Positions 17,050 through 60,427 of a stretch of DNA of 64,000 nt are shown piece after piece; position 1 is the first letter of the stretch, and each line of letters opens with the position of its first letter. The stretch lies in assembly GCA_950097015.1 (NCBI GenBank), contig CATNEN010000002.1, positions 8,184,001-8,248,000 on the forward strand, given 5' to 3'. Position numbers and translations under genes: made by a program. The stretch comes from Macrostomum hystrix. Taxonomy: Eukaryota > Animalia > Platyhelminthes. Below the pieces are notes generated by a model. It did not search any database. It saw only the letters and a program-made list of their open reading frames with translations, and was not told the origin of the DNA.

Positions 17050-17087
17050 TACGGTCGGTCTGTTTGTGTGTTTGACTGAATTCTAAT

Positions 17088-17105: not shown

Positions 17106-17108
17106 AGT

Positions 17109-17727: not shown

Positions 17728-18437
17728 GTTTGATTTATTGTGGTATTTAGTATTTTTGTGCGGTTAATATTAGCAGTGGCAGCTTCAATGTTGCATATTG
17801 AAGTAGTGAACTATTTTGAACATCGTTATACCCTAATTAATATATTGATTATTCTGAGAGTAGTATTGTCTTTTATGCGCACGTACTGTATGTACTGTAT
17901 ATATCATGTTAATTAAAAAATGTCTGTATGTATGCATTTTTTAATACAGACAAATTAATAATAGCTTTGATTATAACTTTTAGAAGTATTATTTTACATG
18001 TACCACTTAAAATTGGTTAATTAATTGCATGTAATTTTTTGTATAATTTATATATCAGAGTGTAATTCTTCACATATTAGAACTAGAACTTTAATGCACA
18101 AATCATTTACATTAGCTTTTATTAATTATATGCATCCAAGAAAATTTTACTCAAATAAATGATATAATATTACTAAAAAATGTTTTCTGAAGCTTAAGGA
18201 AATGTTTATTAAAGATGGTTAGGATACTTGTACATTACTTGTACTTGTACATTATGTGAAGTCTGTTTAAGAAAATGCTACATAAGTACAAAAAATAAGT
18301 GAAAAAATCACTTTTTGTAATTTTCATTCGAAAACTCATGCATACACGTAGTCTTTAATTTAAGTCAACCAGCATTACCAATCAATGCCATCATTTATAG
18401 GTTAATAATATAATATTGCTAACGCATTAAACTCAAT

Positions 18438-24564: not shown

Positions 24565-25898
24565 GAATGTGCTGATCAGTGTCGGAGTCTTCACCCTGCT
24601 TGTGGGCTTCTGCGGCTGCTGTGGTGCCATCAAGGAGTCCAACTGCCTGCTTTACACCTTGAGTGGCTGGATGGCTGTGTTCGTGAGATTATTTGGATTT
24701 ATATCGAAGCACTAGCCGATGCGGATAAGCTCTGGTGCTGGTGAACAAAAATGTTTGTGTCTTCAGCCAATAGCATTCCGCCAAGTCATCCTGTCAACAG
24801 TAGTATAAAATGGCGTTAAAAGTGTTTCGTTATAACTGACAGCCAATAGCATCCAGCCACGTCATCAAGTGAATGAATATATATTTAGAAACGGTATAGC
24901 GATCCTGCGATCCTCATTCCAGTACGCCGGTCTGATCTGTGTGGTCCTGACCATCGAGATCGCGGCCGCCATTCTGGCCGGCGTCTTCCAGAACCGTGTC
25001 CGCAGCGAGGCTGAGATCGCCCTTTTCGACCTGGTGAATAACTACTTCGTCTCGATCCCAACCTACGAGGCCACACGGACCCAAACCACTGGCAATGCTG
25101 CAGCCAAGGCTGCTGTGACTTACCTGGTTAATCTGGTGCAAATCAGCTTTGACTGCTGCGGCGCCATCAACGTTAACGATATCAGCAACAGCACCAGCTG
25201 GCGGGGATCGAACCTCATACTCAATGGAAGGACCCTCGTGAATGCCATGACGTGCTGCTCGCTGAAGACTTCGAGAGCGAAGACTGGAATCAAGTTGCCG
25301 ACCTTCAACTGGACCATCTTTGACGAATACCTGGACAAGCCCGATTGTCCATTCACAGCTGCTAGCCCCAGCAGTGGCATTCACTCGAAGGTAGGTGCAC
25401 AACTTAACAGCGACATTGGTGCATTGAAGTTTGGCACTCATTGTCTAGCTCTACATGAAATACTGCAATGCTGCAATTGTAATCCCTCAGACCTGCTACC
25501 AGGGCTTAATGGACTACATCACCAAGTACTCCTTGCCCCTCATCGGTATCTGCGTTGCAATCGGCCTGATTGAGGTGAGAAATTGAGCAGATCCTACCAG
25601 CTAGCAGGTCCCAGCCACATGTGACATTTCTTAGCTTAACAAAATCACATCCCTTCCATAGCACTCGCAACTCCCTGAACCTCGCAACTCCCTGAACCTC
25701 GCAACTCCCTGAACCTCGCAACTCCCTGAACCTCGCAACTCCCTGAACCTCGCAACTCCCTGAACCTCGCACCTTCCTGAACCTCGCACCTTCCTGAAAC
25801 TCGCACCTTCCTCAACCTTGCACCCGCAGTTACTGGGCATTGTGCTGGCCTGTTGCCTGGTCAGCGCGCTGAAGAACGACAATGCCTACAAGAACTGA
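24565..25898 (+). CDS. Tetraspanin, partial: exons 24565-24658, 24923-25390, 25491-25574, 25830-25898
   Basis: GFCGCCGAIKES-CLL (TM2), TM3 with EIAA, EC2 CCG motif plus TCC and CY, TM4, short tail. The donor at 24659 reads TT instead of GT, and no TM1 exon was found. Confidence 0.85.
24767..24864 (+). promoter_or_regulatory. Tandem ERSE-like elements plus UPRE-like core in the tetraspanin intron
   Basis: CCAAT-N9-CCACG exact at 24843-24861; CCAAT-N9-CCAAG at 24767-24785; CCACGTCA at 24857-24864. Confidence 0.3.
25664..25810. repeat. 17-bp intronic minisatellite (CTCCCTGAACCTCGCAA)n
   Basis: Direct reading. Confidence 0.9.
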
Positions 25899-28085: not shown

Positions 28086-31000
28086 ATGGCCAGGCCTCCG
28101 CTGCTGCTGCTGCTTCTCATCCTGACTGCCGTCAGCTTTGGTAAGTGTTGCACCTGTGCTCACTGCCCTCACATGCACCTGTGCTCACTGCCCTCACATG
28201 CACCTGTGCTCACTGCCCTCACATGCACCTGTGCTCACTGCCCTCACATGCACCTGTGCTCACTGCCCTCACATGCACCTGTGCTCACTGCCCTCACATG
28301 CACCTGTGCTCACTGTCCTCACATGCACCTGTGCTCACTGCCCTCACATGCTCTGCTGATTGCAGACAGCTGTCAGGCAATCAACTGTTTTATTCGGAGC
28401 GGGCCATCAACAACAGACAATGGGACGACTCAGTCCTGTGGGTCAGCCACAGGGTGCTACTCAGTCACAACCAATGGGGTAAGATTAAATTGTCTGCTGA
28501 TTTGTTTTCTGTTTTCCCTTGAAGTTACCTTTTCAAAGCGCCCGCCATCAATAGGTGCTAAATTTTCTATTCATTTACAGCATTGAAGGCAAAGTCTTTA
28601 AAAGTGTCCTTGAATTATTGCGAGTCTCATATTTAACGCAGAGGAAGTTAAAAAAATAAGAAAAAATATTTCATTGATGCATGGCTACCTAAGCCTCAGG
28701 GCAGCTGTCCTTAAGAATAGATATCTCTGAAATACTCGTACTTTCTTTGGGCTTCCGTGGTATCCCACTTGCGTCACCAAGCAGTTTATTTTGCAGTGTG
28801 AAACGCAAAATAAACCATTTTTCTAAAATTATTTTTTTGAAATTTGAAGGGGCAGTGCAATACCTGTAGAACAGATAAAATGTAGACCACGTTTTCAACT
28901 TCTATTTGGCACCTGCTGTAAAATATTTTCTCATAGGAATTCTCGGTTCCACATTTCACAATATTTCTCAAGCTAACTAATGTTTTCCTGGTCAAAAAGA
29001 GAAAAGAGTGTCTCAACTCAGGCTTGCAGCTTTCTTGCTCATATTTTTCGGCTGCAGAAATCATTAAAATGATAATAAAAATAGTTATAATAGAAATAGC
29101 CAAATGAGTGCATGACTCATCATTCCAGCAAAGATTTGCAGGCTGCACCAGCAATGGCCAGTGCCTCAGTTCAGGCGAGGACTGCTACGTGTGCAGCACG
29201 GACTACTGCAACAGCATGACCCCCTCCTCCATCAGCTGCTTCTACCGCTCAGGATCTCACAGCAGCACCGACAATGGCATTGTGGTCGCCTGCCACTCCG
29301 GGATCTCAGCCTGTTACTCCTACATGGGATCGGTGAGTTGAGCTGAGAAGATAAACTAAATTAGCTCCACTTGAAAAGGTGTGCGCGTTTCTGCAGTGCA
29401 GTTCACTTTTTAAGAACTTTTTAAAACTTTTCTTTGAATGTAACGTGTTTAAATTCCATTTTTCTATATGTCAATATGAAGAAAGTTTGTTTTCATTGGG
29501 AGCAAAGTCTTTGTTTGTCAGCTGATTTGATTGCTAATGCTGCTGTGTACTTCAAGCGGGTGTTGATTTTGGGCTGACAGTCAATGACTTGCTGAACTCG
29601 CTCCTCGGGACCTTACTGAAGGATTGATTGAACAGCTGGGAGCGGCTGACGAAGCGGAGGTGGTTGGTGAGGAATGAGCCCAGCGCTCAAGGTGAAGAAT
29701 GGGATGTGGGAATTTCGGTATTTAGAACGCTTTTGAAACCAAGACTACAATCAGGACTGCAGTCTGAGTTTTATCTTTTTACAAGACTAGTTGTCTCTGG
29801 CATTGGCAGAACTGGCCTTCAAAATAGAACTTTCTTGACAGTAGATCGACCCTTGCCTTTTGTAGGGATCACCTGGCGGCTATGCCGGCTGTGGCAACAT
29901 CAGCACCAATGACAATGTTCAGCTGTTCACCTGCAACTCCAGCCTGTGCAACTCCCGAACACCGTCAGCCATCAGCTGCTATGCGGCATTAAGATCTTCT
30001 GGTTCCACCTACAACGGATCTGCGGTGCCCTGCCCTACTGGATTTAGGACTTGCCATATCTATGACTACTACTTCACTATTTCGGTAATTCAATCACCGG
30101 GGTGATTAAAATAATCAACATGACTTCTATCATTTACAATTAGAAAAAAGTAAGCAAGACACCTCATAAGCCTGGAAGAGGCAAGAAGAATGAGCATAGC
30201 AGAGGCAAGAAGAATGAGCATGGAAGAGGCAAGAAGAATGAGCATGGCAGAGGCAAGAAGAATGAGCATGGCAGAGGCAAGAAGAATGAGCATGGAAGAG
30301 GCAAGAAGATTGAGCATGGCAGAGGCAAGAAGAATGAGCATGGCAGAGGCAAGAAGAATGAGCATGGCAGAGGCAAGAAGAATGAGCATGGCAGGGGCAA
30401 GAAGAATGAGCATGGCAGAGGCAAGAAGAATGAGCATGGCAGAGGCAAGAAGAATGAGCATGGCTTCGAGTTAAGAAGAATGAGCATGGCAGAGGCAAGA
30501 AGAATGAGCATAGCAGAGGCAAGAAGAATGAGCATGGCAGAGGCAAGAAGAATGAGCATGGCAGAGGCAAGAAGAATGAGCATGGCAGAGGCAAGAAGAA
30601 TGAGCATGGCAAAGGCAAGAAGAATGAGCATAGCAGAGGCAAGAAGAATGAGCATGGCAGAGGCAAGAAGAATGAGCATGGCAGAGGCAAGAAGAATGAG
30701 CATGGCAGAGGCAAGAAGAATGAGCATGGCAGAGGCAAGAAGAATGAGCATGGCAAAGGCAAGAAGAATGAGCATAGCAGAGGCAAGAAGAATGAGCATG
30801 GCAGAGGCAAGAAGAATGAGCATGGCAGAGGCAAGAAGAATGAGCATGGCAGAGGCAAGAAGAATGAGCATGGCAGAGGCAAGAAGAATGAGCATGGCAA
30901 AGGCAAGAAGAATGAGCATAGCAGAGGCAAGAAGAATGAGCATGGCAGAGGCAAGAAGAATGAGCATGGCAGAGGCAAGAAGAATGAGCATGGCAGAGGC

Positions 31001-32469
31001 AAGAAGAATGAGCATGGCTTCGAGTTAAGAAGAATGAGCATGGAAGAGGCAAGAAGAATGAGCATGGCAGAGGCAAGAAGAATGAGCATGGCAGAGGCAA
31101 GAAGAATGAGCATGGCAGAGGCAAGAAGAATGAGCATGGCAGAGGCAAGAAGAATGAGCATGGCAGAGGCAAGAAGAATGAGCATGGCAGAGGCAAGAAG
31201 AATGAGCATGGCAGAGGCAAGAAGAATGAGCATGGCAGAGGCAAGAAGAATGAGCATGGCTTCGAGTTAAGAAATAAATTCTGCTTGGGGTAACTAATCG
31301 GGTTCAACTGGGAATCATGAAAACCGAATAATAAAGCAGACAGCACCTGAGATCAGTGGCAGAACTCGGTGTGACAGAGCTCAGATAAAACCAAAATGCA
31401 AAGCAAATGAGCCGTGGATTGCCCCACCCTGTACTTCAGATTAGCTACAGCTGGTATTATGCTGGCTGCGGCTCCTGCAACTCCACCGCAAATCCATCAT
31501 GCGTGACCTGCAGCTCTGACCTGTGCAACTCAGCGACTCCTTCAGCCATCGGCTGCTATAAACGACAACTACGTATTGGGGATTCGATCAGCAATGGACA
31601 GCCCGAAACTTGTCAGCCAGGAATTAGCACCTGCTATTCGTTTGTTGCTATCTATTATGTAAGTTCCGATTATGAATGAGCTTTTCTGCCTACAGATTCT
31701 ACATATAAAAATTCTGTATTAATACTACTCAATATTAGCTCATTTTCATTGTCAATACATTGACAATTTCAGGGTTGGTACTACAACTACTTTGGCGGTT
31801 GCGGCGCCTGCAGCCCAGACACGATTCCGTCATGTCAGACATGCACCAGTAACTACTGCAACACCATGGATGCAGGAACTCTCACCTGCGCTACAAGAAA
31901 CAGCCTTAACTATAAAACTAACCCTGTCTCCTGTGCCAGAGGAATAAACAGCTGCTACTCACTCACCAAACCCATAGTGAGTAGCAGCTTTTACCTGTGA
32001 ATATCAGCCAGTGTGGTCCGCTGTGATCTGCTCTGACATTTGCCTCTGCAAACACCAATTATTCCAGGGATGGCTGATGTCAAATGTCGACAACCTCCTC
32101 GGTGGCTGCGGTGTCTGCACGCCGAAAACGAGCGCCCTCTACGGCTGCACAATGTGCAACACCAGCAACTGCACCTCCGTGGCCCCAGCAACAACTGGCA
32201 GCGCAGCCAATCCGAGCGGAAACCCGACCAACTCGCCAAGCACAGGTACCGCAGCAGGTGGCTTCAGCGCAACTGGCAGCCCAGCCAATCCGAGCGGAAA
32301 CCCGACCAACTCGCCAAGCACAGGTACCGTAGCAGGTGGCTTCAGCGCAACTGGCAGCCCAGCCAATCCGAGCGGAAACCCGACCAAATCTGCTTCACCG
32401 ACCTCACTGCTTCACGCAACTCGGGCTCCGCACTGGGCTGCTCCGCTGCTGCTGCTGCTGCTGTGGTAG
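28086..32469 (+). CDS. Multi-Ly6/uPAR (three-finger-like) secreted protein, copy A; exons 28086-28140, 28366-28478, 29129-29332, 29866-30084, 31440-31658, 31773-31976, 32068-32469
   Basis: Signal peptide MARPPLLLLLLILTAVSFG; repeated Cys domains ending GC-x-x-C...C-x-TC-x-x-x-x-CN; all introns GT-AG and in phase; 3' part deleted relative to copy B. Confidence 0.8.
28151..28350. repeat. 25-bp minisatellite in intron 1 of copy A (8 copies)
   Basis: CACCTGTGCTCACTGCCCTCACATG. Confidence 0.95.
30174..31259. repeat. 24-bp minisatellite in intron 4 of copy A
   Basis: GCAAGAAGAATGAGCATGGCAGAG, punctuated by CTTCGAGTTAA. Confidence 0.95.
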
Positions 32470-34044
32470 TTGCAATGAACCTCATGAAGCTGTTTTGAAG
32501 CTTCATTTTCTGAGAAACTAAATTCTCCCGTGAATTTTTGCCTCAGTTTGTCTGCAAACTCGCTTCTGCTTTCGGTTCACTTCTGAGCCACTGACAGGTC
32601 GCACTTTCAGGATTGCTGTCTGCCAGTTGGGAGTGTCTGATGACACACTTTTAATTTAAACTGAATTATTCAAGGTTTCACGTTGCTGATTCGTTCCTCC
32701 TACAAATTATTTTATTCTTGCTTTTCACATCGCATGAATATTCAATACGTTTTCAATCCAGTATTTATTGATCCAGTTCAATCCTGCTCAAATCACATGC
32801 ATCAACGGCTCTGAACAATGTCCAACACGAATAATCAGGATTAAGCTTTTGATGTTGAGGTGAGGTGAGATGAATTTCCACTAAAAAAATTTATATATAT
32901 TTTCATTTCTTGAAGTATTACCGCCCAAAATACGAGCTGGAGATTCTGTTTGAAGATATTTTTCTGTTTGGGTGTAGCGAGTGAATAACTCACAAACATT
33001 TTGATTTTTATACGTATAATTAACAGAGACTTGTGTCCTGGAAATATTTTTGATGTCTCTCAGAGTATGGTAGAGGAGAAAAAAATTGCACAACACACTA
33101 CTCATGAGAGTTCATAGTAGCATACTCTGCGCGTAAAAGCAATAATAATCCGTAGCGCAACAGAAAACAAGTTATTACCAGTTTATCTGTCATTATTCTG
33201 CCAATTTTGAAACAATCGTCCGTCAATAACTCATGTTAAGATCAAAGCAAGCTGCCGACAGTGACAGTAACGAGTACAATTACGGACGCATCACACATAA
33301 GTCACATTAAGGAATTTCCTTCCCATGCGAAAGAAACCTTGAAATACACAGGCGGTACCCTGAAAAATTCCTGAAATATTTCAAAAGAGGCATCGACTCT
33401 TCACGGGCACCTCTAAAATGGGTAGTCGAATAAGAAACGACTCCAGAGGACCAACTGCTCATCCGTACTCATTTATTCCAGTCAGGCGTGTTTGCCTGCT
33501 CTCGCGCTAGTCATTGAGGCTGTTGAGAAGACCCTGCGCGGTCTCATGATATCCAACGCGTGCCCTCTAGGGTTCGGGTTCGAAGGTCCCATGTTCGTCT
33601 GCAGCAACACGTAGACATTGAAACAGGGTGACCTGTGCCGATTCAGCGAACAGATGGCCGCCAAGCTGTCCCTATAAACAGCGATTTCAGCGCCCTGGAA
33701 ATTTTGATTGCTGAGTATCTGCTATTAGGCAGCTACGAGTATTATCAATTTATGCTTTTATTAGTGGAGTAAGTCAAGCAATGAGTCATGCCTCTGATAT
33801 ATAGCTTGCTCATTCATGACTGGCTGACCTGAGCACAAAAAAACACAATTCCTAAACTGCTGATCCAAAGGGGGTCTCTGCGGACAGAAATCCAAAGATC
33901 TAACCGATGGCTTCAGGCTCCCCTTAACAAGATGATTATTTAGCATCCACTAGGAGCCTGAGGACGCTCTCATGGGCACTTTAGCATTTGTTTTAACTCC
34001 GGCAAAAGACAACTCAGATACACTTTGGAACGGACTAAGTTATC

Positions 34045-35052
34045 TGAAATAGAACATTAGAATTAGGAAAAGGAAAACAACTGTGAAAAAATGGTGTGAG
34101 CAGCTCAGCGAGTCGAGGCCAAGCGCGACTGCGCCTCGATAATGCGGCGCGCATTTCCGGCATGGATGGCGGCTCCAAGAGTCTGGAAGATCTGCGCCTG
34201 GATGCGGCTGACCAGCGGATTTGATGAGGTCCAGAGCCTCAGTCACGAAGGCTCCAAGCGTCGCATAAGTCAGCGTGTACTTTGCAGCTTGGGGTGTCTC
34301 AGCTGCGGGGCGAAAGCCCGGATGGCGACGGCAGAGGCGTGTAGGTGGCTTGTGGCGCAGCTGTTAATGACTGTCGCGTCCCAGGCCGTCAGCCGCCCCC
34401 GGTCGAAAGTCGCAACTGTGATCCCGTCGAATTGTCGCGAGTGGCGCGCCGCCAGACCTTCCGGCTCGAGCACCGGAGGCCTCGCCAAGCAGGTTGCGGA
34501 TGGGTGCGTTCAGCTCGTCATGCCGGCAGTGGCGTTCGAAGCCGCGGTTGCAGCTCCGCATGTGGTTGCTAAACTCGTTGAGTGCCTCGCGGCACTCGCA
34601 GACTCCAGGAGCCGCAACCGGCAGGCCGAGGCGCAGACTGAGTGAAGTGGACAGTTCGATGTCCGTCAGGCGTGTCCCATCCCGGCTGCTCGGCAGGTCG
34701 AGGAGCAGCGCCGTGGACTCGGGAGTGGGTGCAGCGTGAAGCCGTGCGATGTCACGCTCGTACATATTCTTCAGTTTTTGCTGTCGCATGATCGGACTCG
34801 GTGGAAGCGTGTGAATTTTACGACTTTTTTCCTCCTCATAACGCGAAAAGATAAGACACTTTGCTCAACGCCTTGTCTGAAGCCCATGAGTGTTGTTTTA
34901 GCAGTTTTTTGTGCCATTACTAGTTTTGAGTTCTCTCCGCGACAATCGTAGCTTCATCTCCAACGTCCACACACTCTAAACCTATTTCCATATAGTGTTT
35001 AACCTGGCTCTTCCGTCGGGCGTTCTTCTCACAATGCCTGATACCCTCTTGA
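34045..35052 (-). mobile_element. CRE/NeSL-like RLE-type non-LTR retrotransposon 3' fragment, degenerate
   Basis: CEC...H...C...RHD zinc knuckle; EPEGL...DGIT...AWD restriction-like endonuclease motifs; AIHAGNA C-terminus; frameshifts. Confidence 0.75.
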
Positions 35053-35572
35053 ATAAGCCACTCAATAGCATTTTACAGTTGTATCTACATGGGCCATTCT
35101 ATCGTAAGATGCTAAATGTGTTTTGGATCCCAGGCACACATTAAAAGCGTTCATTGTGCCGATTCTAGGAAACGAAAGACTTCTCAGTCTGCAATCATTA
35201 ATTGTTTCTAAACCATCATTAAACCTATTTTCGAACCACTTATTGTCATCACAACAGTGGCTGCTTCCCACACTGAGCCAGTAGAAAGGGTCGAATGGGT
35301 AGAAGGGTAGAAGGGTAGAAAAACCGTGAATCACTTGTACGAAAGAATGATACTTCGTCAGGTCTATTTTTGCTCGCAATGACAGCTCTTGTACTTGATT
35401 AAAGTGAAGTATTAGTGCGAATGGCGTCATTCTCACCTGGTTGCCAAGGAGACAGGATTCTGTGGCGCACAGCTCAGCGCGAGCATTTGAAGAGAGCCTC
35501 GAGAGGTGCTGTGAGATTTCTCAAGCCAGCTGCTCAACTCTCCTCACTGACTGCTCCACAGCTCGAATCTGC

Positions 35573-38500
35573 ATGGCCAGGCCTCCGCTGGTGCTGCTGC
35601 TGCTTCTCATCCTGACTGCCGTCAGCTTTGGTAAGTGTTGCACCTGTGCTCACTGTCCTCACATGCACCTGTGCTCACTGCCCTCACATGCACCTGTGCT
35701 CACTGTCCTCACATGCACCTGTGCTCACTGCCCTCACATGCACCTGTGCTCACTGCCCTCACATGCACCTGTGCTCACTGTCCTCACATGCACCTGTGCT
35801 CACTGCCCTCACATGCACCTGTGCTCACTGCCCTCTCATGCACCTGTGCTCACTGCCCTCACATGCACCTGTGCTCACTGCACTCACATGCACCTGTGCT
35901 CACTGCCCTCACATGCACCTGTGCTCACTGCCCTCACATGCACCTGTGCTCACTGCCCTCACATGCACCTGTGCTCACTGCCCTCACATGCACCTGTGCT
36001 CACTGCCCTCACATGCACCTGTGCTCACTGCCCTCACATGCTCTTCTGATTGCAGACAGCTTTCAGGCAATCAACTGTTTTATTCGGAGCGGGACATCAA
36101 CAACAGACAATGGGACGACTCAGTCCTGTGGGTCAGCCACTGGGTGCTACTCAGTCACAACCAATGGGGTAAGATTGAATTGTCTGCTGATTTGTTTTTT
36201 GTTTTCTGTTTTCCCTTGAAGTTACCTTTTCAAAGCGCCCGCCATCAATGACTCATCATTCCAGCTAAGATTTGCAGGCTGCACCAGCAATGGCCTGTGC
36301 CTCAGTTCAGGCCAGGACTGCTACGTGTGCAGCACGGACTACTGCAACAGCGTGACCCCCTCCTCCATCAGCTGCTTCTACCGCTCAGGATCTTCCAGCA
36401 GCACCGACAATGGCATTGTGGTCGCCTGCCACTCCGGGGTCTCAGCCTGTTACTCCTACATGGGATCGGTGAGTTGAGCTGAGAAGCTAAACTAAATTAG
36501 CTCCACTTGAAAAGGTGTGCGCGTTTCTCCAGTGCAGTTCACTTTTTTCTATATGTCAATATGAAGAATGTTTGTTTTCATTGGTAGCAAAGTCTTTGTT
36601 AGCTGATTTGATTGCTAATGTTGCTGTGTACTTCAAGCGGGTGTCGATTTTGAGCTGACAGTCAATGACTTGCTGAACTCGCTCCTCGGGACCTTACTGA
36701 AGGATTGATTCAACAGCTGGGAGCGGCTGGCGAAGCGGAGGTGGTGGGTGAGGAATGAGCCCAGCGCTCAAGGTGAAGAATGGGATGTGGGAATTTCGGT
36801 ATTTAGAGCGCTTTTGAATAGAACTTTCTTGACAGTAGATCGACCTGTGCCTTTGAAATTGTAGGGATCATCTGGCGGCGGCAGCTATGCCGGCTGTGGC
36901 AACATCAGCACCAATGACTATGTTCAGCTGTTCACCTGCAACTCCAGCTTGTGCAACTCCCGAACACCGTCAGCCATCAGCTGCTATGCGGCATCAAGAT
37001 CTCCTGGTTCAACCAACATCGGATCTGCGGTGACCTGTCCTACTGGATTTAGGACATGCCATATCTATGACTACTTCTTATCGGTAATTCTCCCACCGGG
37101 ATTCTACAACATTTAGAACATTTATCATTTAGAACAAGAAAAAAAGTAAGCGAGACACCACATAAGCCTGGAAAAGGCAAGAAGAATGAGCATGGCAGAG
37201 GCAAGAAGAATGAGCATAGCAGAGGCAAGAAGAATGAGCATGGCAGAGGCAAGAAGAATGAGCATGGCAGAGGCAAGAAGAATGAGCATGGCAGAGGCAA
37301 GAAGAATGAGCATGGCAGAGGCAAGAAGAATGAGCATGGCAGAGGCAAGAAGAATGAGCATGGCAGGGGCAAGAAGAATGAGCATGGCAGAGGCAAGAAG
37401 AATGAGCATGGCAGAGGCAAGAAGAATGAGCATGGCTTCGAGTTAAGAAGAATGAGCATGGCAGAGGCAAGAAGAATGAGCATAGCAGAGGCAAGAAGAA
37501 TGAGCATGGCAGAGGCAAGAAGAATGAGCATGGCAGAGGCAAGAAGAATGAGCATGGCAGTGGCAAGAAGAATGAGCATGGCAGAGGCAAGAAGAATGAG
37601 CATGGCAGAGGCAAGAAGAATGAGCATGGCAGAGGCAAGAAGAATGAGCATGGCAGAGGCAAGAAGAATGAGCAGGGCTTCGAGTTAAGAAATAAATTCT
37701 GCTTGGGGTAACTAATCGGGTTCAACTGGGAATCAGGAAAACCGAATGAAAAAGCAGACAGCAGCTGAGATCAGTGGCAGAACTCGGTGTGACAGAGCTC
37801 AGATAAAACCAAAATGCAGGCAAATGAGCCGTGGATTGCCCCACCCTGTACTTCAGATTAGCTACAGCTACTATTATGGTGGCTGCGGCTCCTGCAACTC
37901 CACCGCAAATCCATCATGCGTGACCTGCAGCTCTGACCTGTGCAACTCAGCGACTCCTGCAGCCATCGGCTGCTATAAACGAGTACTACGTATTGGGGAT
38001 TCGATCAGCTATGGACAGCCCGAAACTTGTCAGCCAGGAATTAGCACCTGCTATTCGTTTGTTGCCTCCTATGTAGTAAGTTCCTATTATGAATGAGCTT
38101 TTCTGCCTACAGATTCTACATATAAAAATTCTGTATTAATACTACTCAATATTAGCTCATTTTCATTGTCAATATATATGGACAATTTCAGGGTTCGGCC
38201 CACTACTACGGTGGTTGCGGCGCCTGCAGCCCAGACACGATTCCGTCTTGTCAGACATGCACCAGTAACTACTGCAACACCATGGATACAGCCTCTCTCA
38301 CCTGCGCTATAATTAGAAACGGCTATAACTATAACAATAACCCTGTCTCCTGTCCCAGAGGAATAAACAGCTGCTACTCACTCACCAAACCCATTGTGAG
38401 CCCCTGAATATCAGCCAGTGTGCTCCGCTGTGATCTGCTCTGACATTTGCCTCTGCAAACACCAATTATTCCAGGGATGGCTGACGTCTAATGTCGACAA

Positions 38501-39960
38501 CCTCCTCGGTGGTTGCGGTGTCTGCACGCCGAAAACGAGCGCCCTCTACGGCTGCACAATGAGCAACACCAGCAACGGCACCTCCGTGGCCCCAGCAACA
38601 ACTGGCAGCGCAGCCAATCCGAGCGGAAACCCGACCAACTCGCCAAGCACAGGTACCGTAGCAGGTGGCTTCAGCACAACTGGCAGCCCAGCCAATCCGA
38701 GCGGAAACCCGACCAACTCGCCAAGCACAGGTACCGTAGCAGGTGGCTTCAGCACAACTGGCAGCCCAGCCAATCCGAGCGGAAACCCGACCAACTCGCC
38801 AAGCACAGGTACCGTAGCAGGTGGCTTCAGCACAACTGGCAGCCCAGCCAATCCGAGCGGAAACCCGACCAACTCGCCAAGCACAGGTACCGCAGCAGGT
38901 GGCTTCAGCGCAACTGGCAGCCCAGCCAATCCGAGCGGAAACCCGACCAACTCGCCAAGCACAGGTACCGTAGCAGGTGGCTTCAGCACAACTGGCAGCC
39001 CAGCCAATCCGAGCGGAAACCCGACCAACTCGCCAAGCACAGGTACCGCAGCAGGTGTCTTCAGCACAACTGGCAGCCCAGCCAATCCGAGCGGAAACCC
39101 GACCAACTCGCCAAGCACAGGTACCGCAGCAGGTGGCTTCAGCTGCTACAATGGCTTCGGTGAGACTGGCGTCAACAGCCCACAGACTGTCAGCTGTCCG
39201 TCATCGAGCACATGCTTCGACTACATCATTAGCTACGGAGTGAAGAATGTGAGGCTGAAAAATGTTTTGTTATAAAAAAACTGAAGCTTTGGAGGGCTAT
39301 TAAACGATCAGTTTGAACTTAAGAATAAATAACACGACACACCAAACAAAAATTAGTTTAACGAATCAGCTGTTTCAATTGGTTTAATTTTACATTGAAA
39401 ATAATATAATGAGCCTGCTCAATCACATTGCCTGCATCGTCTCACCTGCAGTTCTACTTCTCAGCCTGCTCAATCACATCAGCTCCATCCTCTCACCTGC
39501 AGTTCTACTTCTCAGGCTGTGGCAGCTGCCAGTTCAGCAGCGGCGCCGACTGTCGCACCTGCAGCTCGAGCTTGTGCAACTCACCTCGGAGAAAGTCCGG
39601 CACGAGATGCTACTTCAGCTTCGGTGACAGTGCGCAGAGCAAATCCGTGGTCGACTGTCCGTCATCCAGCAGCTGCTTCAACTACACCTACAATTACGGA
39701 CTGGCCAAGGTGAGTTCTTGTGCTCAGCCTCATTCTGCTGTGAGTTCACATGAGTTTGAGCATTGCTGGTGATCTGCGAACCCGCGCATTTTCAGCTCGT
39801 CCTTGCCGGCTGCGGCAACTGCACATTCAACAGCGGCACGACGAACTGCCGCACCTGCTTCACCGACCTCTGCAACTCGGGCTCCGCACTGGGCTGCTCC
39901 GCTGCTGCTGCTGCTGCTGCTGCTGTGGTCTTTGGACTGAACTTCTTGAAGCTCTTCTGA
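35573..39960 (+). CDS. Multi-Ly6/uPAR protein, copy B, apparently complete (7 domains, mucin-like stalk, GPI-type tail); exons 35573-35630, 36056-36168, 36265-36468, 36865-37083, 37857-38075, 38192-38395, 38475-39248, 39503-39709, 39796-39960
   Basis: Nine GT-AG exons in phase; signal peptide; seven Cys domains; seven 26-aa S/T/P/G/N repeats; CNSGSALGCS followed by poly-Ala and VVFGLNFLKLF as a hydrophobic C-terminus. Confidence 0.85.
35641..36040. repeat. 25-bp minisatellite in intron 1 of copy B (16 copies)
   Basis: Same unit as 28151-28350. Confidence 0.95.
37176..37678. repeat. 24-bp minisatellite in intron 4 of copy B
   Basis: Same unit as 30174-31259. Confidence 0.95.
38612..39145 (+). 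repeat. 78-bp coding tandem repeat (NPSGNPTNSPSTGTVAGGFSTTGSPA), 7 copies
   Basis: In-frame within exon 7 of copy B. Confidence 0.95.
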
Positions 39961-40819
39961 AGCTTCATTTTCTGAGAAACTGTGAATTACGAGCTCGTAT
40001 CACGTGACTTTTTGCCTCAGTTTGACTGCAAACTCGCTTCTGCTTTCGGTTCACTTCTGAGCCACTGACAGGTCGCACTTTCAGGATTGCTGTCTGCCAG
40101 TTGGGAGTGTCTGATGACACAATTTTATTTTAAACTGAATTATTCAAGGTTTCACGTTGCTGATTCGTTCCTCCTACAAATTATTTTATTCTTGCGTTTC
40201 ACATTACATGAATATTCAAAACGTTTTCAATCCAGTATTTATTGATCCAGTTCAATCCTGCTCAAATCACATGCATCAACGGCTCTGAACAATGTCCAAC
40301 ACGAACAATCAGAATTGAGCTTTTCATTTCTTGAAGTATTACCACCCAAAATACACTGAATTCAGGCGAAAGTTAATTCGTATCTAATCCACGAGCTCAA
40401 GAAACGACTCCAGAGGACCAACTGCTCATCGTACTCATTTATTCCAGTCAGGCGTGTTTGCCTGCTCTCGCGCTAGTCATTGTGGCTGTTGAGAAGACCC
40501 TGCGCGGTCTCATGATATCCAACGCGTGCCCTCTAGGGTTCGGGTTCGAAGGTCCCATGTGCGTCTGCAGCAACACGTAGACATTGACACAGGGTGACCT
40601 GTGCCGATTCAGCGAACAGATGGCCGCCAAGCTGTCCCTATAAACAGCGATTTCAGCGCCCTGGAAATTTTGATTGCTGAGTATCTGCTATTAGGCAGCT
40701 ATTATCAATTTATGCTTTTATTAGTGGAGTAAGTCAAGCAATGAGTCATGCCTCTGATATATAGCTTGCTCATTCATGACTGGCTGACCTGAGCACAAAG
40801 GAACACAATTCCTAAACTG

Positions 40820-42765
40820 TTGATCCAAAGGGGGTCTCTGCGGACAGAAATCAAAGATCTAACCAATCCGACGGGACACAAGGCAGCGTCGGACCAGGGC
40901 GTCCAGGCGGAGATCGAAGCCGCAGAGAGGTGCATTCGACTGCTGGAGCTTCAAGCGAAAGAGTGGCAACTCAGAAGGAGAAGGGAAATATTCCTAGGGC
41001 AACTCAGAAGATGCCCAAGCAGCGGATGACCTCGAACCTCGTTCGGTGCCCGAGAGCCATGAGAACTTCGGTGAGTTTCTGACTGCAGTCTGCAATAATG
41101 CTACCCCGGGTCATATTCCAAAGTCCTAAGTAGACGGAATTAGACAACAGAAGCAGGCGCTGCTCATCACTGACTTCCTGGGAGACGCGTCTCGACCGGC
41201 CGACGCGGTGCTGGCCCAGGGTGCAGATGGCCAACTTGTGCTGCGCGGAGCCAAGGGAAAAAACCTGAAACCTAAACTAGTGTCCATTGGGCAGTGGATC
41301 ATGGCGAACGCTCGAATCCTCGAATGCCTCCTAAAGTCAGGGCAGCTCAGCGAGCAGTCAGTCTCGGAATACCTACAATACAACATACCTACAGTCGGCG
41401 AGCTCCTTGACTGTGGTTACGAGATAGCTCGGGTGATGCGATTTGATGACAGCTTTCGATGCACTCAAGCCTCAATGGGATGCTCCTGGGCTCAGCAGAA
41501 CTTATCGCTCATCGCCCGGCATCTGGCGGCCCCACAATCGACTGGGACAAAACAGCGCCCGTCAAAGCCACAGGCTATGGCCAGAACAGCGCAAGGCATC
41601 CCAGTCTGCCGAGCCTTCAACCTTCCAGCTGGTTGCCGCTTTCCCAACTGCAAGTACGCGCATGTGTGCCGCATCTGCCTGCAGCCGGACCATACTGAGT
41701 CCCGTCACGGAACTGGCGGGATGTCAGCGGCAAAAAACTAGGGCACGGCGGGGCCACGTACTCCGCCGAATGCGCCCCGACGGGGCCTCCTGATTTTAAG
41801 CCAGCTTTTATTTCCGACACGCAGCGCAGCAGCAGCGCCAATATGAATTTAGCTGCGTGGTCCAAAATGCTCGAGGGCGACATCGACCGCGAATTCTAAT
41901 GCAAGGCCTCCGCGACGGATTCCGCCTGACGACGGATAACGCGTTTCGTCAAACCGAAGTCGAAAATTACGGCTCATGCAGGCTGAACGTGAATCAGGTC
42001 GAGAAGCAGATTCAATGTGAGATTGAGATGGGTCGCTACCTTCGCGTCACGGTTAAACCCACGAAAGCCTCAGCCCATTGAGAAGACGGATGGAAATGTT
42101 CGGCTCATCCATGACTGCAGCGCACCGGAGGGCGATAGCGTGAATTCCCACTTCACCGCTCCTTACAAGATAAAGTTTGACACGATCAGCGACCTCGTTT
42201 CAAAGCTGCAGCCGGGAGCTTTCATGGCCAATATCGACTTGAAGGAAGCGTACCGAGCCGTGCCAGTTCACCCGTCTAACTGGGACGTGCTCGTTCTCAA
42301 ATGGAAGTTCGGCAACAGAACTCGGCCTACCTACCTGGTGGACACCCGCCTGCCGTTTGGGGCAGCAGCGTCCGTGTACCACTTCAACCGGCTATCGCAG
42401 GCCATCACCCGCGCCATGCAGCGCAGTGGCGTCAGCGGCATTTGTGGTTACATAGACGACTGGGCCGTCACGGCCCCGACCCATAGCGAGCGTTCAGAGA
42501 CCTATGAGCGCCTGCTAAATCTGGTCCAGGAGCTCGGCTTCGAAGTCAACTGGCAGAAGGTCATCCCACCCAGCCAGCGGCTTGTCTTCCTGGGCGTCGA
42601 GCTCGACACGCTTACAGGTCAGTTGAACCTGCCTGATGACAAGCGCCTGGCCCTGACTGAGTTGATCCGAGACTGCGGCGCAAGCAGCATCATCAGAAGC
42701 AAAAAACTTCAACGTCTATGCGGTAAACTGAGCTGGTTCTGCACCGTAGCCAACCAGCCTCGGGG
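40820..42765 (+). mobile_element. Tyrosine-recombinase retrotransposon (DIRS/Ngaro group) gag + RT, 3'-truncated and frameshifted
   Basis: Gag with CCCH and CCHC fingers (CRAFNLPAGCRFPNCKYAHVCRICLQPDH). RT motifs RLIHDCS.P.G.SVN, IDLKEAYR, RLPFG, YIDD and LVFLGVELDT. RNase H and recombinase are absent. Confidence 0.85.
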
Positions 42766-43110
42766 GCTGCGGATGGGGGCGTTCAGCTCGTCATGCCAGA
42801 AGTGGCGTTCGAAGCCGCGGTTGCAGCTCAGCATGTGGTCGCTAAACTCGTCGAGTGCCTCGCGGCACTCGCAGACTCCAGGAGCCGCAACCGGCAGGCC
42901 GAGGCGCAGACCGAGTGAAGTGGACAGTTCAATGTCCGTCAGGCGTGTCCCAACCCGGCTCCTCGGCAGGTCGATTATTAATTTTGAGTTCTCTCCGCGA
43001 CACCTCGTAGCTTCATCTCCAACGTCCACACACTCTAAACCTCTTTCCATATATTGTTTAACCTGGCTCTTAAGTCGAGCATTCTTCTCACAATGCCTGA
43101 TACCCTCTTG
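42766..43110 (-). mobile_element. Second copy of the CRE-like fragment (internally deleted)
   Basis: High similarity to 34497-34710 and 34915-35052; ends at the same ATACCCTCTTGAA. Confidence 0.8.
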
Positions 43111-44040
43111 AACAACAACAACAACAAAATACGCGGTCAACAACAAAAAAGCAGCGTCACAGTGCACGCTTCAGAGCCTGGGCGCGAACGAAGGCCGCAC
43201 CGCCGGCAGTGTCCGGGGCGCCAGCATCGGCAAGCAGGCAGTCGACGAAACGCCGAGTTCGGGCCTGGCCGCGCCGGTAGGGTGCCTGCAGCGTTAGCAG
43301 CAGCACCTCCTGCACCGGCTGCGGGCAGTAGGACTCGGCGCGGATGATATGGCCTGCCAGCTGGAGTCACCGAAGTCGCAGCAATTCACTTGGACGGGCC
43401 AGGCCGGCGCGGCGATAGAGTGCCGCGTTAGTGATCCGCTCGTCGCTGATCTTAAAGGCGGCGCGCAGCAGGCCAGCGTGCGCCGCGTTGACTTGCTGTT
43501 CGAGCGAATCTGTCAGCGTCCAGGTAGGTCTCGGCGTTGTACAACAGGACGGTCTCGACCACCGCCTGGAACAGCGCCGCCCACTGGCGATCAGGTAGCG
43601 CCTCGGACTGCAGGACTGCCCTCACAGAACGAAAGGCAGCTCAAGCGTACCTGCGGCGACGCCGCAGATCTTCGCGGACATCAGGTACCAGACCGCCGAG
43701 GTAGACGAACTGCTGATAGCGCGGAAGCTCCGTTATCTGCCCGTCAGCGCCTCGGCAGAAAATTACGGCCACGATGTCGCCCGGCACGCAGAGCACAACG
43801 GTCTTCTTCGTGTTGACCAACAGGCCGACACTCGCTGCAGTGCTAACCAACTTGTCCAGCTGGCGCTGGGCGCCCTCTACGGTCGAGGACAGCAGGGCGA
43901 GGTCAACGGCGTAGCCAAGCACGCTGAGCCGTTTCTCCGTTTGACGTCGACCCACGCGTCGCCGCAGTAGGAAGCCGTCTTCGTCGGTAGGAAGAGCAGT
44001 TCGTAGCACCCAGTCAAGCACCAGGACGAACAGGAACGGT
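43111..44040 (-). mobile_element. 5'-truncated LINE (RTE-like) with (TTG)n tail
   Basis: GYAVDLALLS...VGLLVNTKKT...FVYLG RT C-terminal motifs (YADD decayed); (AAC)n on the + strand at 43111-43127. Clade assignment is tentative. Confidence 0.75.
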
Positions 44041-44071
44041 GATCAGCGATCGCTTTTGCTGCCATTCTCAG

Positions 44072-46491
44072 GTAAGCTATGCCGGCTGTGCTAATAGAAG
44101 CCAATGTCCGACAGCAGCTAACAATTGCTACCTGTGCTTGACTGACTACTGCAACACCATGACGCTTTCATCTATCAGCTGCTTCTACCGCTCCGCATCA
44201 CCTAGCAGCAGCAACGATGGAACAATGGTCACATGCCACACAGGGGTCTCGACCTGCTTCTCCTGCATGGAAGCTGTAGGCATGACGATACCAATATGTA
44301 GTGCCTGTGTTCCTGAGTCTGCTGGGCAGTGTCGGCTGCCCGCCAGGCCCTTGTTTCAGGCCGGTTTGGTTGGCTCGAATTTGGCCTCGCCATCTCACAC
44401 CCTCTTCCCCCGTCTCTGCTCTGTGTACCCTGACTTAAGTACCCTGTGTCGCCACCTGATTGGCTGAGTGCAGGCATTGTCTGTCAACCCTTACCCCAGC
44501 ACTGCGTGGCATTGCCCGTCCACTTGGCCGGCGCGTACAACCCTACCCCTCCCTGCGCGCTGGTGGCTTGACTTTGGTAGTTGGTGCACCGCCTCGCCTG
44601 TCCGCTCCCCTCCCCCAGGTAGCTGCCCGATTTTTGCCATGTGCGCGTGCCGGGGCACCACTCTCGCCCTGGCGATCGCGTTGAAATTTAAGATTCGAAC
44701 CGAAAAGACGGTCGCTTACTGCGAAGACTCAAATTATTGCATGCAAATGCACCGAACTCGTCAAAGAACTGCGTCAACCTGCGTTCCGACCGGTAAAGCG
44801 CTGCATTTGTGTCTGTCTTTTCGGAGTGCCAGGTCAGTACTGTACGATCTTAATCTTACTGTAATCTAGAAAATGATTTTTAGACAGTTTTCGAAGCGTG
44901 TAAAATTTTCTAGCCTCACGAAACGCTGGTAAAATTCAAAACACAGCCTTCTGGTGGCTGCGGCCTGTGCAACGCTACGGCGAATCCTTCGTGTGTGACT
45001 TGCAGCTCCGACCTATGCAACACTGTGACACCTTCTGCCATCAGCTGCAATATGAGAGGACTCGATTCCCACTACTACCACATGACCAGCTATGGATCAG
45101 CAGTCAAGTGCCCAACAGGGATCACCACCTGCTTCACATTTACGGCTGTATATGTAAAGTTTTTTTCGGTTGAACAGCGCTTAATTAATACGAAGAATCT
45201 GCTTTCGAAGTGAAGTTTCCTAAACGTTTTTTGCAGTCCATAAACAGTGTGATGTACTTCAGTGGATCTGCAGAACAGACACAATTCCGTCATGTGTGAC
45301 GTGCAGCAGCAACAACTGCAATACACTGGACTATGAACCACTCACCTGCGCCCATATTTATCGAACGTGGAACCAAGACACTTTGAATGTGACCTATGCT
45401 CCGTGCGTCATGGGAATTCGTAGCTGCTACAATCTCTTAAGGCCAATAGTAAGGCTCTTTTATGCATATTACTATACCTTCGAGCTCAAACTAGATTTTT
45501 AGTTAAAGTGCAATCAATCAATTCAGGGTACTCTAGCACAGCCTTATGGCAACTCAATTGTGGACAGTCTTTTTGGCGGATGCGGTGTCTGCACGCCGAC
45601 AACAAGCGCCCTCTACGGCTGCAGAATGCACAACACCAGCAACTGCAACTCCGTGGCCCCAGCAACAACTGGCAGCCCAGCCAATCCGAGCGGAAACCCG
45701 ACCAACTCGCCAAGCACAGGTACCGCAGCAGGTGGCTTCAGCTGCTACAAGGGCTTTGGTGAGACTGGCGTCAGCAGCCCACAGACTGTCAGCTGTCCGT
45801 CATCAAGCACATGCTTCGACTACATCATTAGCTACGGAATGAAGAATGTGAGAGGAGCAACAACTGAAAAACAGTTTTTGCTGTGAAATCGGGAGCTTTG
45901 GCAGTCCAAATGAAATCAGTTTGGACGCACTAACTACTCGTAAAAGAATAATCAAACTAGTAAAAGCCTACCAAACAACTCTAAAAAATTCTACTCATCC
46001 TGCTCAATCAAAGCCGCTAAATATATCTTTCACCTGCAGTTCTACTTCTCAGGCTGTGGCAGCTGTCCCTTCAGCAGCGGCACCGACTGCCGCACGTGCA
46101 GCTCGAGCTTGTGCAACTCACCTCGGAGAAAGTCCGGCACGAGGTGCTACTTCGGTGACAGTGCGCAGAGCAAATCCGTGGTCGACTGTCCGTCATCCAG
46201 CAGCTGCTTCAACTACACCTACGATTCCGGAGTGACCAAGGTGAGTTCTTGTGCTCAGCCTCATTCTGCTGCGAGTTCACATGAGTTTGAGCATTGCTGG
46301 CGATCTGCGAACCGGCGAATTTTCAGCTCGTCCTTGCCGGCTGCGGCAACTGCACATTCGACAGCGGCACGACTAACTGCCGCACCTGCTTCACCGACCT
46401 CTGCAACTCGGGCTCCGCACTGGGCTGCTCCGCTGCTGCTGCTGCTGCTGTTGCTGTGGTCTTTGGACTGAACTTCTTGAAGCTCTTCTGA
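44072..46491 (+). pseudogene. Multi-Ly6/uPAR gene, copy C, lacking 5' exons; exons 44072-44275, 44947-45153, 45237-45448, 45527-45847, 46040-46240, 46327-46491
   Basis: Homologous GT-AG exons. No signal-peptide exon; exon 45237-45448 is 212 bp and frameshifted; a single 78-bp unit; the last two exons are nearly identical to copy B. Confidence 0.75.
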
Positions 46492-47126
46492 AGCTCCATT
46501 TTCTGAGAAACTGTGAAATTAATCATGACTTTTTGCCACAGTTTGACTGCAAGCTCTTATTTTGTTTTTGGTTCACTTCTGGGCAACTCCCTGGTCTCCC
46601 TTCAGAATTGATTTTAAGCCAGTTGTTTGTGTAATGTGGGAAATTTGAAATTTAACTGAAATATTCTAAATTACTCGCTATTGATTCCGTCCCCACCTAA
46701 AAGTATTTTTTCGTACTGCTTCTCCGTAATAACAGAACACTTGTTATTAATCAACTAGACATCGCTCAATATTGGCAAATAAGCTTCTTGCCAGAGCCAA
46801 ATCTAATACAAAATACTAATCTACTATGTAAGCGTTTGAAAAGCGCTTACATCGATGCTCCTTTCAATCAGCGACCTTCACCTGCATTTCGACCCACCCA
46901 GCGCTCAAAATAGACCTGAGCGGGCCAGACCAGCTGACCTGACGGCCTGGGAAGCAATGTCGCAGAGACCAAGAGCCTGTACACCCTATCAGCCTGCGAA
47001 CTCGTGCCAAGAATGCTCGCGGCTGGTGTGTTGGATGGGGGACCATGGCAACGCGGGGCAGAGAGATAACTGCTTGTGTGTAAAGCACTCCGACCCCCCC
47101 TACTGCTAAACACTGTGCGTTATTGC

Positions 47127-60394: not shown

Positions 60395-60427
<33 letters not shown>

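What the first reader, a model, noticed from the sequence alone, without database searches (positions are those of the whole stretch)
28086..46491. Tandem array of rapidly diversifying multi-domain Ly6/uPAR-like surface proteins
Seen: three copies of a secreted gene with up to seven Cys domains and a GPI-type tail. The copies differ in domain number and stalk length. Differences between A and B cluster in exposed, aromatic-rich segments near exon ends (YYFTIS vs YFLS; SWYYA vs YYYG; AIYY vs ASYV; WYYNYFG vs FGPHYYG), while cysteines are fixed. Established: Ly6/uPAR proteins act in immunity, complement evasion and channel modulation, and most have one to three domains. Inference: a variable recognition system (immunity, self/non-self, mating or adhesion). 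The fold is assigned from the Cys pattern only.
Basis: partly seen in the sequence, partly recalled or inferred. Interest (0 to 1): 0.7.

Follow-up and report, generated by a model that had tools for sequence, protein, structure and literature searches.

The report
Seven-domain three-finger flatworm surface proteins
A tandem cluster in what is likely a Macrostomum flatworm holds two intact genes and one broken copy for predicted membrane-anchored proteins of five to seven predicted three-finger (Ly6/uPAR-type) domains, whose finger loops differ widely between copies, likely forming a variable binding surface for changing outside partners such as microbes.

Summary
The array is real, but it is two intact genes and one broken copy. 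A has five cysteine domains and B seven, each with a signal peptide, a 26-residue-repeat stalk and a hydrophobic GPI-type tail. C lacks exons 1, 2 and 4 and carries a frameshift that an independent DNA run also shows. Closest relatives are unannotated Macrostomum lignano proteins. A two-domain relative folds as three-finger domains (39 of 46 structural matches are Ly6/uPAR-type), although Pfam misses the family. Each domain has one phase-0 intron in loop II, so 'exon ends' are finger tips. A/B differences concentrate in loops I and II (29/126 vs 11/204 columns), and spliced contigs show eight in-frame forms of one tip. Domains 6-7 are homogenised within species (B vs C dS 0.07, against 0.79 in the head). 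Positive selection is suggested, not shown: overall dN/dS is 1.0 and the loop ratio 1.66 is not significant. Cysteines are not fully fixed. The orthogroup is expressed more in hatchlings than adults, which argues against a gamete role. Verdict: a new multi-domain variant of the Ly6/uPAR kind, likely a variable surface-binding family; the ligand is unknown.

The parts
28086..32470 (+). Gene A, 471 aa: signal peptide, 5 three-finger-type domains, 2.5 stalk repeats, Leu-rich tail. Exons 28086-28140, 28366-28478, 29129-29332, 29866-30084, 31440-31658, 31773-31976, 32068-32469
   Evidence: GT-AG model with open frame; an A-type exon 5/6 junction stands in spliced contigs of X1 and X5
32192..32387 (+). 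A stalk: 78-bp (26-aa) Ser/Thr/Pro/Gly/Asn repeat, 2.5 copies
32385..32469 (+). A deletion junction: stalk joined to the last exon with a short locally templated insertion; domains 6-7 lost; the GCT run is read as a Leu run, giving a new hydrophobic tail
   Evidence: sequence comparison with B
35573..39960 (+). Gene B, 720 aa: signal peptide, domains 1-5, stalk, domains 6-7, GPI-type tail. Exons 35573-35630, 36056-36168, 36265-36468, 36865-37083, 37857-38075, 38192-38395, 38475-39248, 39503-39709, 39796-39960
   Evidence: joints 38075>38192 and 38395>38475 (GT..AG); introns 7 and 8 seen as joints at the matching C coordinates; same 5+stalk+2 layout in M. lignano P0030
38586..39143 (+). B stalk: 78-bp repeat, 7.1 copies, between domains 5 and 6
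38049..38218 (+). Loop II of B domain 4, split by intron 5: the most variable site examined
   Evidence: eight distinct forms in contigs of X1, X5, X9 (tables 5 and 5c)
44072..46491 (+). Copy C, a likely pseudogene: exons 44072-44275, 44947-45153, 45237-45448 (frameshifted), 45527-45847, 46040-46240, 46327-46491; lacks exons 1, 2 and 4; old divergent head, B-like base
   Evidence: DNA run X3 holds contigs identical over 44010-44430 and 44553-45610
33432..35056 (.). Spacer after A, repeated in pieces after B (40399-40867, 42765-43115): marks the tandem duplication unit
   Evidence: self-BLAST, 92-97% identity
40870..42760 (+). Retroelement fragment inserted in the B-C spacer (gag-like ORF with a Cys/His cluster, then reverse transcriptase)
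   Evidence: RVT_1 E 8e-12; ORFs
43130..44060 (-). Second reverse-transcriptase fragment abutting the truncated 5' end of C
   Evidence: RVT_1 E 2e-5, below the curated cut-off

Best explanation
This is a tandem, birth-and-death family of predicted GPI-anchored surface proteins built from five to seven predicted three-finger (LU) domains, whose loop I and loop II tips in domains 3-5 vary between copies and likely act as a diversifying binding surface for changing outside ligands, most likely microbes or parasites at a somatic surface. Shown: gene structure, splicing, loop-centred variation, in-frame junction variants, a mosaic of variable head and homogenised base, one broken copy. Predicted: fold (from a relative), disulfide pairs, GPI anchor, an extended glycosylated stalk that lifts domains 1-5 above a constant two-domain base. 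Inferred: variety is germline-made, by tandem duplication, in-frame indels beside the loop-II intron, stalk-repeat crossing-over, patchy gene conversion of the base, and in-frame loss of whole phase-0 exons. Each such exon carries the back half of one domain and the front half of the next, so its loss makes a hybrid domain. The ligand class is inferred only from the pattern of variation and from expression.
For: Fold: the model of M. lignano P0012 (mean pLDDT 73.6) matches LU/three-finger proteins in 39 of 46 VIA rows (top Z 8.3, rmsd 2.2, 61 aligned; CD59 Z 7.4; first non-LU row Z 3.0) and uPAR by Foldseek (E 8e-4). A profile of the window's own 12 domains hits both P0012 domains (E 6e-11 at library scale) and all 7 of P0030. 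All 16 PDB sequence hits at E<=10 to the exon profile are three-finger toxins, though none is significant alone (best E 0.13). Cys are lost in the pairs the fold predicts: C5+C6 in domain 2, C7+C8 in B domain 5. All 12 domains have an intron in loop II, as in LU genes (PMC6600238). Variation: loops I+II 29/126 vs 11/204 columns in A/B (p=3e-6), and 46/181 vs 21/283 in the M. lignano pair P0030/P0022, where domains 6-7 differ at 1 of 131 columns. Eight forms of the domain-4 loop-II tip occur in three runs (4 in X1, 3 in X5, 3 in X9); all four length changes are multiples of three (read by hand). Loop pN 0.120 vs non-coding 69/1933, p=7e-8; non-loop pN/pS 0.56. B vs C dS is 0.79 in the head and 0.067 in the base. 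The orthogroup is up in hatchlings over adults, with no germline or social annotation (PMC7336406 supplement rows).
Against: Overall A/B dN/dS is 1.01 and loop pN/pS 1.66 is not significant (p=0.25). In the 40 listed variant sites, 27 of 35 exonic changes are non-synonymous against 0.76 expected under neutrality (only 40 of 127 rows were shown). The non-coding baseline uses BLAST-alignable segments and may itself be homogenised. Loops are also the most diverged parts between species (121/184 vs 116/291), as expected for any three-finger scaffold. The seven-domain orthologue folded poorly (pLDDT 34), and no domain of the window itself was folded. No GPI or signal-peptide predictor was available. 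Two of four M. lignano orthogroup members are 'Tail' class, a region with prostate and adhesive glands, and a four-domain sister family is 'Testis' class. No tissue, infection or ligand data were found.
Confidence: 0.5

Rival explanations
1. A structural surface-coat (glycocalyx or mucus) protein family under relaxed constraint: the loops drift neutrally and copies turn over without a specific ligand race.
For: dN/dS about 1 overall; variant N fraction equals neutral expectation; one of three copies is broken and A has lost two domains with a frame change in its tail; B domain 5 lost a disulfide pair; the repeat-rich genome favours duplication.
Against: Non-loop sites are constrained (pN/pS 0.56) while loop non-synonymous sites diverge about three times faster than flanking non-coding DNA; all junction indels keep frame; the same domains 3-5 vary in a second species while 6-7 stay fixed.
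Confidence: 0.22
2. A reproductive protein (prostate secretion, sperm or egg surface) diversifying under sexual selection, like Bouncer/SPACA4, TEX101 or salamander PMF.
For: Two orthogroup members are 'Tail' class. Mlig007435.g4 and Mlig031483.g2, gene-cluster mates of the four-domain relatives P0003 and P0023, are 'Testis' class and up in octets. LU proteins have fertilization roles (Bouncer abstract start).
Against: The orthogroup is up in hatchlings, which lack sexual organs; the closest gene Mlig014447.g1 is 'Non-Specific' with no social or germline flag.
Confidence: 0.13
3. A self/non-self or cell-adhesion code: matching variants bind homophilically between cells, or in the adhesive organ or regenerating epidermis.
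For: Variable head on a constant base with a long stalk; 'Tail' class and a 'down' adult-vs-regenerant signal (the legend was read only for adult vs hatchling).
Against: No fusion or rejection biology is known to me for this genus (recall); no binding data; a GPI-type tail gives no signalling domain.
Confidence: 0.1
4. A shed, toxin-like or repellent array whose domains act on predator or prey receptors, as snake three-finger toxins do.
For: The 8-Cys pattern lacking the 2-3 bond and the top structural and sequence matches are short three-finger toxins.
Against: Fold similarity shows no function; the chain is membrane-tethered by pattern, and the linkers are short with no repeated dibasic sites except one before domain 7 (translation).
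Confidence: 0.05

Closest known systems
Multi-LU GPI-anchored proteins uPAR (PLAUR), CD177, C4.4A/LYPD3, TEX101
   Same: Tandem three-finger domains only, signal peptide, GPI-type tail, intron at the loop-2 tip, clustered genes (PMC6600238 passages; structural matches).
   Different: 5-7 domains rather than 2-3 for the members named in that review; 8 Cys per domain with C-x2-C-x4-CN; no introns between domains and phase-0 loop-II introns instead of phase-1-flanked exon pairs; a repeat stalk inside the domain array; many variant copies.
Snake short-chain three-finger toxins and plethodontid modulating factor
   Same: 8-Cys domain without the 2-3 bond; exon boundary mid-domain; variable exons in a multigene family (PMC12390062 passages).
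   Different: Those are single secreted domains; here a tethered multi-domain chain with two residues between C6 and C7; no toxin activity is shown or implied.
Schistosoma mansoni SmLy6A-K, including two-domain SmLy6D/Sm29
   Same: Flatworm surface LU proteins with signal peptide and GPI site, partly clustered (PMC4492491 passages).
   Different: SmLy6 have ten Cys with a C1-x-x-C2 motif, C8-C9 spacing 0-1 and one or two domains; none was hit by the profile search.
Macrostomum lignano hypothetical proteins Mlig014447 (P0030), A0A1I8I8H6 (P0022), Mlig007435 (P0003), Mlig005947 (P0012)
   Same: Same family: P0030 has the 5+stalk+2 layout of B; others have 1, 2 or 4 domains.
   Different: Unannotated or auto-named 'TNFR-Cys' or 'Pacifastin'; the stalk is not a 26-aa tandem repeat; domain 1 has extra Cys.
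Variable surface receptor families (lamprey VLR-B, Hydractinia Alr, mollusc FREPs) - recalled, not from a call
   Same: Works-like analogy: variable distal part, constant base or stalk, clustered copies, sequence exchange.
   Different: Other folds (LRR, Ig, fibrinogen); no somatic rearrangement, ligand or signalling is shown here.

Membership tests
Ly6/uPAR (LU, three-finger) superfamily | Domain of 60-90 residues | tested here: met
   61-69 aa for 12 of 12 domains of A and B; criterion from PMC6600238
Ly6/uPAR (LU, three-finger) superfamily | Three-finger fold | tested here: met
   Met for the relative P0012, linked to the window's domains at E 6e-11 and by BLASTP E 7e-9; the window's own spliced domains were not folded; the P0030 model is low-confidence yet hits LU proteins in 43 of 44 listed rows
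Ly6/uPAR (LU, three-finger) superfamily | Eight or ten conserved Cys in the three-finger pattern | tested here: met
   8 Cys in 9 of 12 domains, 6 in three (A D2, B D2, B D5), lost in pairs; criterion from PMC4492491; disulfide bonds themselves not tested
Ly6/uPAR (LU, three-finger) superfamily | Asn after the last Cys (CN motif) | tested here: met
   10 of 12 domains; A D5 ends CT, B D5 has lost the Cys
Ly6/uPAR (LU, three-finger) superfamily | Intron at the tip of loop 2 | tested here: met
   12 of 12 domains have one intron between C3 and C4; four confirmed as GT..AG joints
Classical 10-Cys Ly6 / SmLy6 subfamily | Ten Cys with N-terminal C1-x-x-C2 motif and C8-C9 spacing 0-1 | tested here: not met
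   No C-x-x-C at domain start; spacing is 2
Vertebrate multi-LU genes (uPAR cluster) | Each domain's exon pair flanked by phase-1 introns | tested here: not met
   Only intron 1 is phase 1; no inter-domain introns; loop-II introns are phase 0
Ly6/uPAR (LU, three-finger) superfamily | Match to a Pfam model of clan CL0117 | tested here: inconclusive
   No such family for 17 exon translations at E<=5 (exons hold permuted half-domains) or for 21 relatives at E<=0.1
GPI-anchored LU proteins | Signal peptide and GPI attachment signal | tested here: inconclusive
   Pattern and hydropathy only: small residues after the last domain, hydrophobic C-terminus (max KD 2.1 in A, 2.3 in B), no cytoplasmic tail; no predictor available
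Variable immune or recognition receptor families | Positive selection at ligand-contact sites | tested here: inconclusive
   Loop pN/pS 1.66, p=0.25; above non-coding rate, p=7e-8
Variable immune or recognition receptor families | Variant-specific ligand binding and a defence or recognition phenotype | not testable with these tools
   needs experiments

The most novel reading that the evidence does not exclude
A flatworm variable-receptor system built on the three-finger scaffold: interchangeable heads with hypervariable finger tips on a constant two-domain GPI base, diversified at a CDR3-like exon junction and by in-frame loss or skipping of half-domain/half-domain exons that create hybrid fingers, and used to recognise microbes or non-self.
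Probability: 0.2. Interest if true: 0.8.

Novelty: new variant of a known kind. Interest (0 to 1): 0.52.

Why it matters
Free-living flatworms have few described recognition molecules (my knowledge). A Pfam-invisible family of tethered three-finger arrays with variable finger tips and a constant base gives concrete RNAi and in situ targets in a tractable genus. It extends the LU architecture beyond the one to three domains that the papers read here describe, shows an exon layout in which exon loss makes hybrid domains, and suggests that HMM surveys of invertebrate LU proteins (PMC13719153) undercount them. If the loops only drift, it remains a modest annotation gain.

Tried and rejected
No whole genome is held, so genome-wide copy number is open. 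Word-based protein searches: single exon, no hit; exon profile at near lengths, none; at longer lengths, 3 M. lignano proteins. Pfam on exons gave only sub-threshold zinc-finger-type hits, rejected as Cys composition. P0010, a 2563-aa TIG-repeat protein, was rejected as a false hit. PDB sequence search with the seven-domain alignment gave 1 three-finger hit of 4, all non-significant; with the two-domain alignment 18 of 19, non-significant. The AlphaFold model of P0030 is unreliable. ESM Atlas did not complete. Exon skipping: no joint from exon 5 to exon 7 in four runs; the long skips 38057>38347 and 45296>45575 have unknown letters between, and the first stands in DNA run X3 too, so they are read as divergent paralogues. 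No contigs of X1, X5 or X9 lay on C's exons at 44088-44275 and 44934-45215 at 85% likeness while X3 did: a weak hint only, since contigs show presence, not absence. Depth was not used as copy number. An alternative acceptor at 45248 would keep C in frame but drops the GCxxC motif; not supported. No further copies in the window flanks (tblastn). Rfam found nothing in 40000-47000. Earlier scan findings: none. Literature: Macrostomum+Ly6 gave 3 unrelated papers; gene ids absent from main texts and from supplements of PMC10786194 and PMC8662610; searches found no description of this family. bioRxiv supplements and the sequence list of PMC13719153 were not seen. No complex prediction was run.
Full report
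Setting. The window is repeat-rich animal DNA with GT-AG introns. No genome is held. The genus is inferred as Macrostomum: the three best of 21 profile hits (E down to 6e-67), and 9 of the 21, are M. lignano proteins; 11 are Meloidogyne proteins and 1 is a false hit. In addition, 44709-44743 matches the 35-nt M. lignano spliced leader at all but two letters.

Gene models. A has 7 exons and 471 aa, B 9 exons and 720 aa, both open from ATG to stop. Contigs of runs X1, X5 and X9 cover exons, skip introns 5 and 6 at GT..AG joints and introns 7 and 8 (at C's coordinates), so the family is spliced as modelled. X1 is labelled 'DNA?' and X5 '?'; I treat them as RNA because of these joints. B is signal peptide, domains 1-5, a stalk of 7.1 26-aa repeats, domains 6-7, then small residues and a hydrophobic end. 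M. lignano P0030 (604 aa) has the same layout, so seven domains is likely the older state. A lost domains 6-7 by a deletion from the stalk into the last exon; the GCT run is now read as leucines, again giving a hydrophobic end. Whether this A form is expressed was not tested. C starts at exon 3 directly after a reverse-transcriptase fragment, lacks exons 1, 2 and 4, and has a 212-nt exon with a short deletion at the GCxxC motif. DNA run X3 holds contigs identical to C across both the 5' junction and the frameshift, so these are not read errors, though X3 may be the same strain.

Fold. Each domain is 61-69 aa with the spacing C-x14-18-C-x5-6-C-x12-20-C-x2-C-x7-9-C-x2-C-x4-CN (domain 1 has x5 and x6 in place of x2 and x7-9). 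Pfam finds no LU family. Because every domain is split by an intron, I folded database relatives. The two-domain M. lignano protein P0012 (11-row alignment, mean pLDDT 73.6, pTM 0.47) matches LU/three-finger proteins in the first 39 of 46 VIA rows: short neurotoxin Z 8.3 (rmsd 2.2, 61 aligned), CD59 7.4, Prod1 7.4, GPIHBP1 7.3, with the first unrelated row at 3.0. Z of 7-8 is middling alone, but both domains are covered and the list is homogeneous. Foldseek ranks uPAR first (E 8e-4). A profile of the window's 12 domains hits both P0012 domains and all seven of P0030. The P0030 model is poor (pLDDT 34), though its hits are again LU proteins (43 of 44 listed). Cysteines are lost in the pairs the fold predicts (C5+C6 in domain 2; C7+C8 in B domain 5).

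Exon layout. LU genes carry an intron at the tip of loop 2, with each domain's exon pair generally flanked by phase-1 introns (PMC6600238, passages). Here all 12 domains have the loop-II intron, but it is phase 0 and there are no introns between domains. Each inner exon therefore encodes the back half of one domain and the front half of the next. Losing one keeps the frame and joins unlike halves; C, lacking exon 4, shows this in DNA. Skipping in RNA was not seen.

Variation. A and B differ at 29 of 126 loop I/II columns and 11 of 204 other domain columns (p=3e-6); the M. lignano pair P0030/P0022 differs at 46 of 181 and 21 of 283, with 40 of the 46 in domains 3-5 and only 1 of 131 columns in domains 6-7 (domain 1 of that pair was parsed short). 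At the domain-4 loop-II tip, one search shows eight forms: B's own, A's, and six more, read by hand as about AYQFFVYSLNY, YGGWYNY, YMGQNNY, SLSALYNGWHHY, YSGWYYNY and YAGSAHY. Four change the length, by +3, +15, -3 and +3 nt. Runs carry 4, 3 and 3 forms and bear three organism codes, so alleles, paralogues and species differences cannot be separated. Many variant letters stand in DNA run X3 too, which points to germline copies. Loop II of A domains 3 and 4 is 8/19 and 9/17 aromatic.

Selection. A vs B: Nd 47 of 790 sites, Sd 16 of 272, dN/dS 1.01; alignable non-coding DNA 69 of 1933. Loops: pN 0.120, pS 0.072, ratio 1.66, p=0.25; other sites 0.56; loop pN exceeds the non-coding rate at p=7e-8. 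The 35 exonic variant sites shown are 27 non-synonymous and 8 synonymous, as neutrality expects. Positive selection is therefore suggested, not shown.

Mosaic. B vs C has dS 0.79 over the head exons and 0.067 over exons 7b-9; intron 8 is 95% identical but intron 7 and the 3' flank are about 75-80%. Between species, domains 6-7 are no more conserved than other cores. Patchy gene conversion of the base within species is the simplest reading (inference).

Expression of relatives (PMC7336406; supplement rows, passages and section 9 seen). Mlig014447.g1 is 'Non-Specific'. Its orthogroup has 4 M. lignano and 6 M. hystrix transcripts, is found in 2 of 4 species, has two 'Tail' members, mean divergence 0.756, and is up in hatchlings over adults in one species. 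Gene-cluster mates of the four-domain relatives are 'Testis' class and up in octets, so the wider family includes likely reproductive members.

How it likely works. A GPI-tethered chain presents five small disulfide-locked domains on a flexible stalk above a constant base; aromatic finger tips of domains 3-5 would bind outside partners, and copy turnover, junction indels and conversion renew those tips. Microbes or parasites are the likeliest partners, given somatic, juvenile-biased expression and within-run diversity, but this step is inference (confidence 0.5 for the whole statement, about 0.9 for the family assignment). With no signalling tail it would trap, shield or hand ligands to a co-receptor.

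Novelty. Multi-LU GPI proteins are known, and a 2026 survey found LU proteins in all 22 phyla examined (PMC13719153; parts 1-2 of 4 and passages seen; the main text does not name Macrostomum). My searches found no description of this family. Other papers seen as passages: PMC12390062, PMC4492491, PMC8629364; PMC10786194 and PMC8662610 as supplement searches only; the rest as search listings. It is a new variant of a known kind: interest 0.52.

Noticed in passing
window 44709-44743, inside an intron of copy C: A copy of the 35-nt Macrostomum spliced-leader sequence with two mismatches and no GTAAG donor behind it; very deep contig cover in RNA-like runs with diverse downstream ends. Likely a retro-inserted trans-spliced 5' end.
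   Followed up: partly
proteins P0005, P0007, P0008, P0011, P0013-P0019: Eleven of 21 profile hits are uncharacterised tandem Cys-repeat proteins of root-knot nematodes (Meloidogyne) with a similar GCxxC...CxxCxxxxCN unit and no Pfam family: possibly another unrecognised multi-three-finger family. Not folded.
   Followed up: partly
window 32385-32500: One GCT/CTG run gives a hydrophobic tail in two frames (Ala-rich in B and C, Leu-rich in A); A's downstream letters in the old frame match a tail type common in RNA-like contigs (46474 and 46477 rows).
   Followed up: partly
window 24836-25573 (+): Tetraspanin exon (Pfam E 2e-7) about 2.5 kb upstream of gene A.
   Followed up: no
window 58800-61805 (+): T-box transcription factor exons (Pfam T-box E 9e-31).
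   Followed up: no
window 11351-17082 (-), with a 620-bp exact direct repeat at 8737-9356 and 17108-17727: An LTR retrotransposon with open gag and pol ORFs (protease, RT, RNase H, integrase) and identical LTRs, so a recent insertion.
   Followed up: no
window 18423-19686 (+): FLYWCH-domain ORF followed by a transposase-like ORF (Pfam FLYWCH E 4e-11); likely a MULE-type DNA transposon (recalled).
   Followed up: no
window 2512-5049 (+): ORFs with a P-loop motif (weak AAA hits) and a 360-aa ORF without Pfam match.
   Followed up: no
window 39412-39519: A 51-bp duplication spans B's exon-8 acceptor; the upstream AG would add 17 in-frame residues with one extra Cys to loop II of domain 6. One X9 contig retains letters of this intron end.
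   Followed up: partly
window 28149-28351, 35639-36041, 30169-31260, 37175-37678: Intronic minisatellites (25 bp and 24 bp) shared by A and B with different copy numbers.
   Followed up: no
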